Below, one piece after another: positions 1 to 3,000 of a DNA stretch of 20,528 bases. This DNA is from a virus (lineage: Duplodnaviria; Heunggongvirae; Uroviricota; Caudoviricetes), in IMG/VR virus record IMGVR_UViG_2778261537_000015, positions 1-20,528 of that record; one strand, 5' to 3'. The position numbers were made by a program. The number at the start of each line of letters is the position of its first letter. The stretch's first letter is position 1.

Positions 1-3000
1 ATGGCACTGAATATTCCATTCAGAAATGCGTACTATCGTTTTGCATCCAGTTACTCATTTCTCTTTTTTATTTCCTGGTCGCTGTGGTGGTCGTTATACG
101 CTATTTGGCTGAAAGGACATCTAGGGTTGACAGGGACGGAATTAGGTACACTTTATTCGGTCAACCAGTTTACCAGCATTCTATTTATGATGTTCTACGG
201 CATCGTTCAGGATAAACTCGGTCTGAAGAAACCGCTCATCTGGTGTATGAGTTTCATCCTGGTCTTGACCGGACCGTTTATGATTTACGTTTATGAACCG
301 TTACTGCAAAGCAATTTTTCTGTAGGTCTAATTCTGGGGGCGCTCTTTTTTGGCCTGGGGTATCTGGCGGGATGCGGTTTGCTTGACAGCTTCACCGAAA
401 AAATGGCGCGAAATTTTCATTTCGAATATGGAACAGCGCGCGCCTGGGGATCTTTTGGCTATGCTATTGGCGCGTTCTTTGCCGGCATATTTTTTAGTAT
501 CAGTCCCCATATCAACTTCTGGTTGGTCTCGCTATTTGGCGCTGTATTTATGATGATCAACATGTGTTTTAAAGATAAGGATCACCAGTGCGTAGCGGCG
601 GATGCGGGAGGGGTAAAAAAAGAGGATTTTATCGCAGTTTTCAAGGATCGAAACTTCTGGGTTTTCGTCATATTTATTGTGGGGACGTGGTCTTTCTATA
701 ACATTTTTGATCAACAACTTTTTCCTGTCTTTTATGCAGGTTTATTCGAATCACACGATGTAGGAACGCGCCTGTATGGTTATCTCAACTCATTCCAGGT
801 GGTACTCGAAGCGCTATGCATGGCGATTATTCCTTTCTTTGTGAATCGGGTAGGGCCAAAAAATGCATTACTTATCGGTGTTGTGATTATGGCGTTGCGT
901 ATCCTTTCCTGCGCGCTGTTCGTTAACCCCTGGATTATTTCATTAGTGAAGCTGTTACATGCTATTGAGGTTCCACTTTGTGTCATATCCGTCTTCAAAT
1001 ACAGCGAGGCAAATTTTGATAAGCGCCTGTCGTCGACGATCTTTCTGATTGGTTTTCAAATTGCCAGTTCGCTTGGGATTGTGCTGCTTTCAACGCCGAC
1101 TGGGATACTCTTTGACCACGCAGGCTACCAGACAGTTTTCTTCGCAATTTCGGGTATTGTCTGCCTGATGTTGCTATTTGGCATTTTCTTCTTGAGTAAA
1201 AAACGCGAGCAAATAGTTATGGAAACGCCTGTACCTTCAGCAATATAGACGTAAACTTTTCCGGTTGTTGTCGATATCTCCCTATCCCTCAACCGGAAAA
1301 TAATAATACTAAAGTGCTTAGCCCTGCTAATAATCACCTAATCCAAACGCCTCATTCATGTTCTGGTACAGTCGCTCAAATGTACTTCAGATGCGCGGTT
1401 CGCTGATTTCCAGGACATTGTCGTCATTCAGCGACCTGTCCCGTGTATCACGGTCCTGCGAATTCATCAAGGAATGCATTGCGGAGTGAAGTATCGAGTC
1501 ACGCCATATTTCGCTATCAGGATTCTGTGTGATGGTTACATCGCCCGGCCCAGGGCTGTTTAGTCATCAGCGCTTTCTGACAGTGCTGAGATTTCAACCT
1601 GTTGCAGTAAAAATGAGTAGATATAAGGCAAGTGTGCTGCCAAACCTATCTTTTACGGGGTGAAGGTAGATTTCGTTTGAAGGGTATCTGGTGTCCCCTG
1701 CAGACATCTACTTGAGGCGGCAGGGGATTGATTGGAATGGTATTTTTTGGATGTGAAAAATATTTTACCCGCTATTTTACCCATTGGCGCGGCTTAAGAG
1801 CTTATTTTTGAATTCACAATGGTCACGATATAACCATCTTGCTCGCCCGTGGATAACTTTGGCTTTAGGCAGGTCTCCGGACTTAATCCGGTCATAGATG
1901 AAGGTTTTACCGAAGCCAGTATCGGCCATGATGAATTTCAAATCAACCAGTGAATCAGGTTGTAGTTCGTGTTGCATGAGTGCTATCTCCGAATAGGGAA
2001 TCGAACCTGCAAATCAGGCAATAAAAAACCGCCATCAGGCGTTTTTGTGTTCTTTCAGTTCTTCAATTCGAATATTGGTTACGTCTGCATGTGCTATCTG
2101 CGCCCATATCATCCAGTGGTTATAGCAGTCGTTGATGTCCTCTGCTTCGATAACTCTGTTGAATGGTTCTCCATTCCATTCACCTGTGACTCGGAAGTGC
2201 ATTTATCATCTCCATAAAACAAAACTCGCCGTAGCGAGTTCAGATAAAAGAAATCCCCGCGAGTGCGAGGATTGTTATTCATTGCCGATATTTACCTTTA
2301 TCGCGAACACCTTTACCGGTTTATCGCCGAAGTGCAGATGTGTGATTGTCTTGATTTCATATCCGTCATACGGAACATCAATTCTGCGGCTGGAGTCGTC
2401 GCGCTTCGGATATCCCTTTGTGATAATCAGGCGGTCATACTCCCGGAACATAATTCGCTTATTCCAATAGTCATTACACAGGCGATACTCTTCCGTTTTC
2501 TCCCCGCGAATCATGGCATCGAAGTATTCACCTTTGACAGCAAGTTGCAGGTTAGCCACGACCTTCCTCCTTTGGCTTGTGAATTTGTATCGTCATGCCG
2601 CTTTGAGTGGTGACTACAACGACAGAACCAGGCTGAAGACTGTTAAGATTGAATGCTTCGTAAAACGAATCCAATGCCAGTGCTTTTTTATTCTTTCGGT
2701 TCAACCAACGCCATCCCCTGCTACAGGCTACACTGACAATCCACTGTCCACTCCTGTAAGCCATATAAAACCAGATGAGCAAAACCTGAAGGAAGGCCAT
2801 CCAGTCAATAATTGTATATTTTGCGAGGGAGTCCATTACTTCACCTCCTGCGGCGGTTCTGGTAGCGGCATCCAGTGAGTTGCCTGCTCAATACCATTAC
2901 CCGGCTTAATCGTTGCTTCTCCTCGCCGGAATGTGCTTCCTGTATAGCGTGCGGAGCATATTAGCGGTTCAACCAGAGAGCTATCGAAATTCACCGAAAT

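What the first reader, a model, noticed from the sequence alone, without database searches (positions are those of the whole stretch)
1689..2046. A second, internal fragment of argW 290 bp inside attR, with torI sandwiched between the two tRNA pieces
The 15-bp att core (1689..1703) matches tRNA positions 61..75. A separate 16-bp block (1997..2012) matches the immediately adjacent tRNA segment (the T-arm, 19461..19476). They are separated by 293 bp that contain torI and the TATTTTACCC repeats. Simple single-site integration predicts only the core repeat. The extra, displaced fragment suggests one of three things: serial or tandem integration events at argW with partial deletion, an attP that once carried a longer tRNA 3' segment later split by insertion of the RDF gene, or recombination between related argW-specific elements (KplE1, Sf6 and HK620 all use argW). 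A bidirectional terminator follows directly after the fragment.
Basis: seen in the sequence. Interest (0 to 1): 0.5.

Follow-up and report, generated by a model that had tools for sequence, protein, structure and literature searches.

The report
Conserved tRNA-loop box before torI
The "second argW fragment" is real, but it is not damage from a past rearrangement of this prophage: it is the local version of a short, conserved copy of the tRNA's T-loop that sits just ahead of the excision-factor gene torI in a whole family of phages that integrate at argW, where it probably helps control excision.

Summary
GGAATCGAACCTGCAA (1997..2012) matches argW exactly, at 19460..19475 (not 19461..19476). 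It lies 293 bp from the attR core, with torI between. It is not specific to this prophage. K-12 KplE1, Sf6, HK620 and a CUS-3-type prophage carry the same 16-mer, always 293 bp from the core. The CUS-3 GenBank record uses it as its "att core", which leaves out torI and the true attR. In relatives from Erwinia, Salmonella, Serratia, Pantoea, Edwardsiella and Enterobacter, with TorI identity down to about 35-50%, a 10-nt core, GTTCGATTCC, is invariant about 29 nt before the start codon while both flanks differ; one phage has it twice. This 10-mer is the tRNA segment that abuts the crossover region in attB. The attP core already has its own degenerate T-loop beside it, so the box is a second copy, not the missing half of a split attP. 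No conserved RNA fold, promoter, tRNA or Rfam family was found. The box differs from mapped TorI sites just outside the GTTCG pentamer. My reading is an old, tRNA-derived, selectively kept DNA site in the torI leader, probably bound by a recombination protein (integrase favoured, TorI second). That function is inferred and untested.

The parts
1689..1703 (.). attR copy of the att core (TGGTGTCCCCTGCAG; the last 15 nt of argW)
   Evidence: Exact duplicate of 19446..19460. It is the same core as published for KplE1, HK620, Sf6 and Kapi1 (PMC2951348; PMC8787464).
1704..1776 (-). P arm of attR. It holds the left core-type flank (AGTAGATGT next to the core) and two IntS arm-type repeats, GGGTAAAAT(A), at 1761..1770 and 1773..1782.
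   Evidence: Sequence. The same GGGTAAAA repeats lie in the P' arm at 19290..19330. A 135-bp attR ending at about 1783..1802 is enough for excision in vitro (PMC3509656). In relatives the flank beside the core reads (A/G)TTCGATGTA, which is T-loop-like.
1777..1977 (-). torI (recombination directionality factor, 66 aa)
   Evidence: ORF. It is 100% identical to TorI/HkaC/Sf6 gp18 by tblastn and is annotated torI in E. coli genomes.
1987..1990 (-). Shine-Dalgarno GGAG of torI
   Evidence: Sequence. GGAG(A/T) is conserved in all relatives, usually 7 nt after the box.
1996..2006 (-). Conserved T-loop box, GTTCGATTCC(C) on the - strand. The first 10 nt equal argW gene positions 52..61.
   Evidence: It gives 10 invariant columns in an alignment of 10 different leader contexts whose flanks vary (A2). 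It lies about 26-42 nt before the RDF start in 14 of 40 relatives exactly and in 4 more with one change, and occurs nowhere else in 222 kb except in one tRNA gene.
1997..2012 (-).
   Evidence: The same 16-mer is annotated 'attL core' and 'attR core' in the CUS-3 record CP000711. In HK620 it overlaps an annotated 'cII protein' site and 'phage integration' promoter. In Sf6 it overlaps the annotated pI and bsq2 features.
1991..2018 (-). About 28 nt of leader between the hairpin's TTATTG and the torI SD, holding the box
   Evidence: HK022 reads ...GGCGGTTTTTTATTG|GAGACAAGAAATG with no such segment. Two TorI-family prophages, L218 and L237, read ...TTTTTTATTGCC(T/C)GGAGGAAA..ATG, also without it.
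2023..2046 (.). Short hairpin (CGCC-ATCA-GGCG) with A and T runs, a possible weak two-way terminator; it holds the stop codon of the 55-aa ORF
   Evidence: Sequence and RNA fold. The terminator scan does not call it.
2035..2202 (-). 55-aa ORF ('ORF55' of phage 434) from the lambdoid early-left region, a different mosaic module from torI
   Evidence: Homology to HK022, 434, Stx phages and others starts at window 2015..2023 and runs rightward. Homology of the torI module runs 1689..~2082. ORF55 is annotated in M60848. No Pfam family matched.
19446..19520 (-). argW, tRNA-Arg(CCT). Its last 15 nt are the attL core; its T-arm at 19460..19475 is the other copy of the 16-mer.
   Evidence: ARAGORN.
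19285..19445 (-). P' arm of attL with the intS promoter. It holds TorI pentamers GTTCG (19434..19438, 19371..19375, 19361..19365), GTCCG (19414..19418) and GATCG (19351..19355), and arm-type GGGTAAAA repeats.
   Evidence: Sequence. The five TorI sites and their pentamers are as published for K-12 (PMC2951348).
18127..19284 (-). intS (P4-type tyrosine integrase). An ATG at 19284 gives 385 aa; the ORF list starts it at a GTG at 19320.
   Evidence: Pfam Arm-DNA-bind_3, Phage_int_M and Phage_integrase.

Best explanation
The 16-mer is the E. coli-lineage form of a conserved 'T-loop box' with the core GTTCGATTCC. This box belongs to the leader of the RDF gene in a widespread family of argW-specific xis-attP-int modules: KplE1/CPS-53, HK620, Sf6, CUS-3 and Kapi1 in E. 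coli and Shigella, and relatives in Erwinia, Salmonella, Serratia, Pantoea, Edwardsiella, Enterobacter and Phytobacter. Three things are shown. First, it is a second copy of the part of argW that abuts the crossover region in attB (the 'B' half-site); attP has its own degenerate copy directly beside the core. Second, it is old. Third, it stays identical to the tRNA while both of its flanks, and the RDF protein itself, diverge. The function is inferred. It most likely acts at the DNA level as a binding site for a recombination protein, tying torI expression to the state of the recombination machinery. My first choice is the integrase. Its core-binding domain must recognise exactly this sequence in attB. 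Integrase bound at the arm-type sites at the 3' end of torI could bridge to the box at the 5' end, enclosing torI in a loop of about 230 bp and damping read-through from the early-left operon. My second choice is TorI itself, binding through the GTTCG pentamer for negative feedback. The origin is also inferred: a single ancient capture of tRNA sequence, not an event in this prophage.
For: The 16-mer and the core are exact and not due to chance. The same 16-mer lies 293 bp from the core in all 36 viral contigs that carry it next to torI, joined to at least three different upstream modules at ...TTTTTATT(G/A)CCTGAT|. It is also present in K-12, Sf6 and HK620 and the CUS-3-type prophage of strain S88. 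Distant relatives keep GTTCGATTCC about 29 nt before the RDF ATG with different flanks: Midgardsormr38 (two tandem copies), Emek/g341c and phiEt88, and 14 exact plus 4 near matches among 40 loci, with no other exact copy in 222 kb apart from a tRNA gene. An alignment of 10 contexts has 10 invariant columns. There are 60 distinct combinations of leader and protein, with TorI identity from 100% down to 35%. The attP flank beside the core is T-loop-like (TGATTCGATGTA|TGCAGG, CAATTCGATGTA|, AGGTTAGATGTA|), so the box is an extra copy. The level of action is DNA rather than folded RNA: RNAalifold predicts no pairs, the window's fold has z = -0.79, no Rfam family reaches threshold, and no sigma-70-like promoter is found. 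Integrase is favoured over TorI for two reasons. In 21 TorI-type pentamer sites from four lineages the base after the pentamer is C (15) or T (6) and never A, whereas the box always has A. And phiEt88 keeps the box although its P' arm has no GTTCG-type pentamers. Context from the literature: RDF expression is proposed to be the main control point of excision and PtorI is uncharacterised (PMC2951348). TorI and IntS are both already known to act as repressors at att-overlapping sites.
Against: No binding or expression data exist for the box. It is missing from about half of the relatives, including phages Chronis and EhrS_49 and prophages L218, L220 and L237, so it is dispensable. A 135-bp attR without it supports excision in vitro (PMC3509656). 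Leader segments are themselves exchanged horizontally: nearly identical leaders precede RDFs that are 80% and 38% identical to TorI (L343 and L253). The contexts are therefore not all independent, and part of the 'conservation' may be recent spread. As an integrase core-type site the B form (GATTCC) is the poorest match to the GRTGTC shared by the other three half-sites (and sequence), and a lone half-site usually binds weakly. Within the E. coli family four single sequences carry a point change in the box. All relatives found target argW, so I could not test whether the box changes when the target tRNA changes.
Confidence: 0.55

Rival explanations
1. Neutral relic. The box is a leftover of an ancient illegitimate event, such as tandem elements at argW followed by a deletion from the T-arm/core boundary to just before the RDF gene, with the junction later picked up by a phage. 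It has no present function and persists because the leader segment spreads horizontally.
For: Tandem arrays at argW do exist: in L224, L253 and L357 the xis-P-core is followed directly by the P' arm and integrase of a second, different element. Leaders are mosaic and shared between very different RDF genes. The box is absent from many relatives and is not needed for excision in vitro. Remnants of an older HTH-type xis gene lie just upstream in several lineages, which shows that modules have been replaced at this spot.
Against: Ten invariant nucleotides sit between flanks that differ on both sides in at least 10 contexts, with RDF proteins down to about 35-45% identity. A neutral relic should have decayed as its flanks did. 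The position relative to the start codon is fixed. One phage carries a tandem duplication.
Confidence: 0.2
2. TorI operator. The box is a TorI binding site through GTTCG and gives the RDF negative feedback on its own expression.
For: Published TorI sites are the pentamers GTTCG, GATCG and GTCCG, and TorI represses PintS through such sites (PMC2951348). The box contains GTTCG. The tandem direct duplication in Midgardsormr38 resembles the way RDF sites are usually arranged.
Against: GTTCG alone is common: 24 copies in the window against 30 expected. In 21 P' sites the next base is C or T and never the A found in the box, and the preceding base is mostly A, not G. The conserved stretch runs five or six bases beyond the pentamer. 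phiEt88 keeps the box without GTTCG-type sites in its P' arm.
Confidence: 0.2
3. An ancestral attP carried a contiguous T-arm-to-CCA segment that was later split by insertion of torI plus the P arm.
For: The 16-mer and the core together rebuild argW positions 46..75 with a one-base overlap.
Against: attP has its own T-loop-like sequence directly next to the core in most lineages, so nothing is missing there. The P arm holds the arm-type sites the integrase needs and cannot be a late insert. No contiguous phage-type version exists in 377 loci. The base after the box is C, not the tRNA's T, in most lineages.
Confidence: 0.07
4. A recent event in this particular prophage: serial or tandem integration with partial deletion, or recombination between KplE1-, Sf6- and HK620-type elements.
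For: The prophage in the window is a 17.7-kb mosaic remnant, so rearrangements have occurred in it.
Against: The same arrangement, base for base, is present in K-12, Sf6, HK620, a CUS-3-type prophage and dozens of contigs.
Confidence: 0.02
5. An RNA-level element of the torI leader: a T-arm mimic, a structure that hides the SD, or a small upstream ORF.
For: The distance to the SD is fixed, 7 nt in most lineages. A perfect T-arm-like stem, GACAGG/CCTGTC, flanks the box in the Edwardsiella and Pantoea stewartii prophages.
Against: There is no consensus structure and no covariation. The window's fold is no better than shuffled sequence. The T-stem 5' half is not kept in several lineages. A nine-codon reading frame over the box is not conserved (sequence). 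No Rfam family matches.
Confidence: 0.08
6. The existing database annotations are right: either a cII-activated 'phage integration' promoter (HK620, Sf6) or the true att core (CUS-3).
For: The HK620 record marks a cII site and promoter here and Sf6 marks 'pI'. The CUS-3 record marks the 16-mer as attL and attR core.
Against: The TTGC repeats are 5 nt apart; the known cII and C1 sites have 6 (my own knowledge). They are not conserved in relatives that keep the box. No promoter-like hexamers were found. The CUS-3 left end continues TGCAGGGGACACCA-TTTATCAG exactly as attL does here. The CUS-3-type prophage of S88 has torI, the P arm and the 15-nt core beyond the 16-mer. CUS-3 is stated to share the KplE1 module (PMC2951348).
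Confidence: 0.04

Closest known systems
KplE1 (CPS-53) / HK620 / Sf6 recombination module at argW (Panis, Ansaldi and co-workers)
   Same: Identical TorI, a P4-type IntS, a 15-16-nt core, GGGTAAAA arm-type repeats, five TorI pentamers in the P' arm, and the order torI-attP-intS, so that the two genes end up at opposite ends of the prophage. The 16-mer is present in K-12 itself.
   Different: Nothing differs in the window's module. What is new is the reading of the leader. The papers I could read describe PtorI as uncharacterised and do not mention a T-loop-like box. A full-text search for the motif found no phage paper.
Core-type half-sites of heterobivalent tyrosine integrases (lambda B, B', C, C')
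   Same: The box equals the 10 bp directly 5' of the crossover region in attB, which is the position and size of a B half-site. The attP flank (A/G)TTCGATGTA is its C counterpart.
   Different: The box is a lone half-site 293 bp from the core. It has no matching overlap sequence next to it (CTATTCG against TGCAGGG), so it cannot be a recombination partner. Binding by IntS is untested.
TorI binding sites I1-I5 (GTTCG/GATCG/GTCCG) in attL
   Same: The box contains the pentamer GTTCG.
   Different: The flanking bases differ from all 21 P' sites examined, and the conserved stretch is twice as long as the pentamer.
'att core' of the CUS-3 GenBank record (CP000711)
   Same: It is the same 16 nt, recognised by the depositors as a direct repeat between argW and the right end of the prophage.
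   Different: It is not the crossover site. Using it as the boundary removes torI, the P arm and the real core from the record.
'Boundary sequences' at lambdoid mosaic joints (annotated bsq2 in Sf6)
   Same: The box lies at the left edge of the integration module, where several unrelated upstream modules join.
   Different: Boundary sequences are defined by their position at module joints. Here the sequence is also a copy of the target tRNA, and it is kept even where the joint lies elsewhere.

Membership tests
KplE1/HK620/Sf6-type argW recombination module | RDF of the TorI/HkaC type encoded next to attP and reading towards the core | tested here: met
   torI at 1777..1977 (-) is 100% identical to TorI/HkaC/gp18.
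KplE1/HK620/Sf6-type argW recombination module | 15-16-nt core equal to the 3' end of argW, duplicated at both prophage ends | tested here: met
   The published core is CTGCAGGGGACACCAT.
KplE1/HK620/Sf6-type argW recombination module | P4-type integrase directly after argW, with its promoter inside attL, arm-type repeats and five TorI pentamers | tested here: met
   Pfam domains, sequence and pentamers, compared with PMC2951348.
tRNA gene or tRNA pseudogene fragment | Recognisable cloverleaf or a longer stretch collinear with a tRNA | tested here: not met
   ARAGORN finds only argW. The match is 16 nt; the next bases on both sides differ from argW.
tRNA gene or tRNA pseudogene fragment | Sequence identity to a tRNA beyond chance | tested here: met
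   16 of 16 with 0.01 expected. The 10-nt core recurs in relatives only at this spot and in tRNA genes.
att core (crossover site) | Direct repeat that bounds the element, with the phage arm on one side and host DNA on the other | tested here: not met
   Phage DNA (torI and the P arm) continues for 293 bp beyond it before the true core and the host flank.
TorI binding site | Pentamer GTTCG, GATCG or GTCCG | tested here: met
   GTTCG at 2002..2006 (-).
TorI binding site | Flanking context like the mapped sites (A before the pentamer, C or T after it) | tested here: not met
   None of 21 sites has A after the pentamer; only 2 of 21 have G before it.
TorI binding site | Bound by TorI | not testable with these tools
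   Needs a gel-shift or footprint assay.
Integrase core-type (B) half-site | Same sequence as the attB half-site next to the crossover region | tested here: met
   GTTCGATTCC equals argW gene positions 52..61, ending at the first base of the core.
Integrase core-type (B) half-site | Paired with an inverted partner across a 7-bp overlap identical to that of the other att sites | tested here: not met
   The next 7 nt are CTATTCG, not TGCAGGG. The following GAGATAG matches GACACCA at only 3 of 7 positions (sequence).
Integrase core-type (B) half-site | Bound by IntS | not testable with these tools
   Needs a gel-shift or footprint assay with IntS, with and without IHF.
Structured RNA leader or known RNA family | Conserved secondary structure with covariation, or a match to an Rfam model | tested here: not met
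   RNAalifold predicts 0 pairs; z = -0.79; only sub-threshold STnc130 and STnc420 hits.
Sigma-70 or cII-activated promoter | -35 and -10 hexamers, or TTGC-N6-TTGC conserved in relatives | tested here: not met
   No promoter-like site was found in 1500..2400. The TTGC repeats are 5 nt apart and absent from most box-bearing relatives.

The most novel reading that the evidence does not exclude
The phage deliberately keeps a copy of the half of its bacterial target site that the integrase must recognise (the argW T-loop half-site) in front of its excision-factor gene. Integrase bound to the arm-type sites at the end of torI bridges to this decoy half-site and loops out torI. The same protein-DNA recognition that finds the tRNA gene would then also shut off the directionality factor whenever integrase is present. 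This would be a previously undescribed way of coupling target recognition to the integration/excision decision. It would also explain why the box stays identical to the tRNA while everything around it drifts.
Probability: 0.15. Interest if true: 0.6.

Novelty: new member of a known kind. Interest (0 to 1): 0.35.

Why it matters
For KplE1-type prophages the published view is that excision is decided by expression of the RDF gene. The control region of that gene is still described as uncharacterised (PMC2951348). A 10-nt element that stays identical across genera, sits at a fixed distance from the torI start codon and copies the integrase's target half-site is a concrete handle on that question, and simple gel-shift and reporter experiments can test it. 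There is also a practical point. The repeat misleads prophage boundary calling. The CUS-3 reference record is cut at it and so lacks its excisionase and true attR, and any tool that picks the longest direct repeat with the tRNA will make the same mistake.

Tried and rejected
- Chance: rejected.
- Hidden tRNA or tRNA pseudogene: ARAGORN finds only argW.
- Known RNA family: only sub-threshold STnc130 and STnc420 hits, driven by the hairpin.
- Conserved RNA structure, T-arm mimic or hidden SD: no consensus pairs, and z = -0.79.
- Small upstream ORF over the box (QVRFP.RR*): in frame in two lineages only, lost where the spacing differs (sequence).
- Sigma-70 promoter: none found. The cII box of the HK620 annotation is not conserved.
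- Extra tRNA-like pieces elsewhere in the window that might bracket the module: none.
- Contiguous 16-mer plus core in a phage context: none in 377 loci.
- Covariation with the target tRNA: I looked for relatives aimed at other tRNAs. Every box-bearing module found targets argW. Pseudomonas phi297 and F116 have a different gene arrangement. The Leclercia and Pantoea lineages with other targets have no box.
- The search for related loci in viral contigs with the TorI alignment returned only 100%-identical copies. The species-level genome scan and tblastn against phage records gave the diversity instead.
- Yersinia prophages have two inverted GGTTCGATTTCC copies inside the 3' end of xis. These decay in an 82% relative, so I did not use them as support.
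- Papers I could not obtain: King et al. 2007 on CUS-3 and Menouni et al. 2013 on Rho and torI. From memory, the latter reports that Rho-dependent termination upstream of torI keeps KplE1 from excising. I could not check whether it maps onto this leader.
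Full report
**1. The observation**

On the - strand the window reads argW → attL → intS ... ORF55 → torI → attR.

- ARAGORN finds one tRNA, Arg(CCT), at 19446..19520 (-).
- The 15-nt core TGGTGTCCCCTGCAG occurs only at 1689..1703 and 19446..19460 (0.03 expected by chance).
- The 16-mer GGAATCGAACCTGCAA occurs only at 1997..2012 and 19460..19475 (0.01 expected).
The two blocks share G19460, and together they rebuild the last 30 nt of argW.
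- The 293 bp between them hold torI (1777..1977, -) and two arm-type repeats.
- The hairpin after the block (about 2023..2046) has only a 4-bp G+C stem, contains the stop codon of the upstream 55-aa ORF, and was not called by the terminator scan.
- The tL4 terminator annotated in HK022 and 434 is a different hairpin, equal to window 2252..2273.

**2. The arrangement is not special to this prophage**

The window carries the well-studied KplE1/HK620/Sf6 recombination module. TorI is 100% identical, the integrase is P4-type, and the P' arm carries the published TorI pentamers and arm-type repeats.

- blastn against phage records shows the torI/attP module (window 1689..~2082) shared with Sf6, HK620, Kapi1 and others. 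The ORF55 segment (from 2015..2023 rightward) is shared with HK022, 434 and Stx phages, which have other integration modules. The 16-mer therefore lies at the left edge of the integration module.
- In 36 of 36 viral contigs that carry the 16-mer next to torI, the core follows after exactly 293 bp. At least three unrelated upstream modules join at ...TTTTTATT(G/A)CCTGAT|.
- K-12 has the same sequence.
- No locus among 377 has the 16-mer contiguous with the core in a phage context. The only contiguous copies are argW genes.

**3. The repeat has been noticed before, and misread**

- The CUS-3 record (CP000711) begins TTGCAGGTTCGATTCC, annotated 'attL core', and continues TGCAGGGGACACCA-TTTATCAG..., exactly as attL does here.
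- The record ends with the same 16 nt right after the ORF55 hairpin, annotated 'attR core'.
- In strain S88, whose prophage matches the CUS-3 neuO/intS region at 100%, the chromosome continues beyond that point with torI, the P arm, the 15-nt core and then dsdC. Panis et al. state that CUS-3 shares the KplE1 module. The record therefore omits the excisionase gene and the true attR.
- HK620 annotates a 'phage integration' promoter and a cII site over the same bases. Sf6 annotates a 'pI' promoter and a 'boundary sequence'.

**4. Distant relatives change the picture**

tblastn with TorI found phages with the same gene order, xis followed by about 250 bp and then int. They are Midgardsormr38 (88%), Chronis (86%), EhrS_49 (82%), Emek/g341c (about 50%) and phiEt88 (about 40%). 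All have (C/A)TGCAGGGGACA..., the argW 3' end, as core.

Upstream of the RDF ribosome-binding site they read:
- window: TTGCAG-GTTCGATTCC-CTATTC-GGAGATA
- Midgardsormr38: CACAG-GTTCGATTCC-CGTCAG-GTTCGATTCC-CACC-GGAGATA (two copies)
- Emek/g341c: CTCCAA-GTTCGATTCC-CAAACC-GGAGATA
- phiEt88: GGCTAG-GTTCGATTCC-CAGCAAA-GGAGTA
- Chronis and EhrS_49 have no box.

A scan of one genome per species added prophages from Serratia, Citrobacter, Pantoea, Edwardsiella, Enterobacter, Phytobacter and others.

- Of 40 loci, 14 have the exact 10-mer and 4 a one-change variant, 26-42 nt before the start of the matched RDF.
- The only other exact copy in 222 kb is inside a tRNA-Arg gene.
- A pattern scan of viral contigs gave 17 more TorI-like genes behind the box, with further flank variants.
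- In all there are 60 distinct combinations of leader and protein.
- An alignment of 10 contexts has 10 invariant columns, GTTCGATTCC, between variable flanks. The next conserved columns are the SD and the ATG.
- The base after the box is C in most lineages, where the tRNA has T. The three bases before it are CAG in most.

A sister leader, TTcCAGGTTCGATTCC, matches argW at 15 of 16.

**5. What the box corresponds to**

GTTCGATTCC is argW gene positions 52..61: the last T-stem base, the T-loop and the first two bases of the 3' T-stem. It ends where the core begins. In attB this is the half-site (B) that the integrase must contact to the left of the crossover region.

attP has its own version directly next to the core: TGATTCGATGTA|TGCAGG (Midgardsormr38), CAATTCGATGTA| (phiEt88), AGGTTAGATGTA| (Chronis) and, more decayed, TCAAGTAGATGT|C in the window. 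attP thus already carries a T-loop-to-CCA copy of the tRNA in which TCC is changed to GTA or GTC. The box upstream of the RDF gene is a second copy.

This argues against a long attP split by insertion of torI. So does the fact that the supposed insert would contain the arm-type sites the integrase depends on.

**6. At what level it acts**

Several readings found no support:
- No tRNA-like gene.
- No Rfam family above threshold.
- No consensus RNA structure or covariation, and no unusual stability.
- No sigma-70-like promoter.
- No conserved small ORF (sequence).
- The TTGC-N5-TTGC 'cII site' of the HK620 annotation is not kept in relatives that keep the box.

What remains is a linear sequence motif, most simply a protein-binding site on DNA.

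- **TorI** is a candidate because its published sites are GTTCG, GATCG and GTCCG and it represses PintS through them. The fit is poor, though. The pentamer alone is common. In 21 P' sites from four TorI-type lineages the next base is C (15) or T (6), never the box's A. The conserved stretch is twice as long as the pentamer. And phiEt88 keeps the box although its P' arm has no such pentamers.
- **The integrase** is a candidate because the box is the exact B half-site, and because the tRNA cannot change, which would explain why the copy does not change either. Arm-type sites lie at the 3' end of torI, so a bridge between arm and box would enclose torI. Against it, B is the weakest of the four half-sites and a lone half-site binds poorly.

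Neither candidate has been tested.

**7. Limits**

- The box is absent from about half of the relatives. Two of them have the same hairpin followed directly by the SD (L218 and L237), as HK022 does. The box thus lies in a dispensable leader segment of about 28 nt.
- A 135-bp attR without it excises in vitro.
- Leaders move horizontally: almost the same leader precedes RDFs of 80% and 38% identity to TorI (L343 and L253). The contexts are therefore not all independent.
- All box-bearing modules target argW, so the key test, whether the box changes with the target, could not be done.

**8. Origin**

Legitimate site-specific recombination always leaves the T-arm next to the core and the P' arm, never next to the RDF gene. 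The box must therefore come from an illegitimate event or from selection.

One workable path is tandem elements at argW, which do occur (L224, L253 and L357). A deletion from the T-arm/core boundary to the RDF gene of the first element would follow, and the junction would then be captured by a phage. It is a guess.

**9. Verdict**

- The most likely reading is an old, tRNA-derived, selectively maintained DNA site in the torI leader. I put confidence that it is a conserved module element rather than a local scar at about 0.85, and confidence that it is an operator for a recombination protein at about 0.35.
- The element sits in published sequences and in a well-known system, so the novelty is modest. 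It does bear on the stated open question of how RDF expression is controlled, and it exposes an error in a reference phage record.

Noticed in passing
L001 1..16 and L004 1..16 (CP000711); L370 1600..2000 (S88): The CUS-3 reference record is bounded by the 16-mer repeat instead of the true 15-nt core. It therefore lacks torI, the P arm and attR, which are present just beyond that point in the CUS-3-type prophage of strain S88.
   Followed up: yes
L128/L129 about 2400..2470; L369 1040..1120 (K-12); several loci: Just upstream of the box or hairpin in several lineages lies the first 20-25 codons of an HTH-type excisionase-like gene (MESHSLTLDEACAFLKIS...), cut off by the torI module. This looks like the footprint of an older xis gene replaced by the present module. 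In Emek and g341c the annotated xis CDS is extended over the box from an upstream GTG.
   Followed up: partly
L125 2459..2484 (Midgardsormr38): The box is tandemly duplicated with a 16-nt period (CAGGTTCGATTCCCGT CAGGTTCGATTCCCAC).
   Followed up: partly
L233, L234, L236 at +163..+187 from the xis match start: Three Yersinia prophages carry two copies of GGTTCGATTTCC, 13 nt apart and in inverted orientation, inside the 3' end of their xis gene, read in two different frames. In an 82%-identical relative (L373) both copies are degraded.
   Followed up: partly
L224, L253, L357 downstream of the core: xis-P arm-core is followed directly by a different P' arm (GTCTAC-type repeats and GGGGGCC repeats) and a second P4-type integrase. 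These are tandem arrays of two different elements at argW whose junction mimics an attP.
   Followed up: partly
window 2050..18100: The prophage is only 17.7 kb and is mosaic. Lambdoid early-left genes lie on the - strand (ORF55, an ASCH-domain protein as annotated in the matching phage and E. coli records, DUF4752, Ead/Ea22 + DUF551). Next to them is a + strand block with myovirus-type tail genes (DUF3383 sheath-like, Baseplate_J, P63C) that has only a 70% hit to a Vibrio phage. I did not look for capsid or immunity genes.
   Followed up: partly
window 1..1703: The host flank beyond attR is not dsdC as in K-12 and S88. It carries a LacY-family sugar symporter (415 aa). The flank right after the core (GATACCCTTCAAACG...) is one of several flank types seen among argW prophages, and other genomes with this flank annotate a DUF4942 protein there.
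   Followed up: no
window 1927..2054 (+) and 2019..2074 (-): Sub-threshold Rfam hits to the Salmonella sRNA candidates STnc130 (29.5 bits, cut-off 55) and STnc420 (24.6 bits, cut-off 70). Both are driven mostly by the hairpin. The STnc130 hit would be antisense to the torI start and the box.
   Followed up: partly
window 19282..19320: The mechanical ORF list starts intS at a GTG (19320, 397 aa). The ATG at 19284 gives the 385-aa IntS and places the arm-type repeats and the promoter upstream of the gene, as published.
   Followed up: partly
L003 1689..1701 (HK620 annotation) = window 2009..2021: The annotated 'cII protein' site is TTGC-N5-TTGC, one base shorter than the usual N6 spacing. Its second TTGC is the start of the tRNA-like 16-mer. 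It is not conserved in other box-bearing lineages.
   Followed up: partly
L222/L224 (Edwardsiella), L223 (Pantoea stewartii), about 2960..3000: Here the box is flanked by a perfect 6-bp inverted repeat (GACAGG...CCTGTC), giving a T-arm-like hairpin. Their att cores differ slightly (TGCAGGGAACGCCA and TGCAGGGGGCA), presumably tracking the local argW.
   Followed up: no
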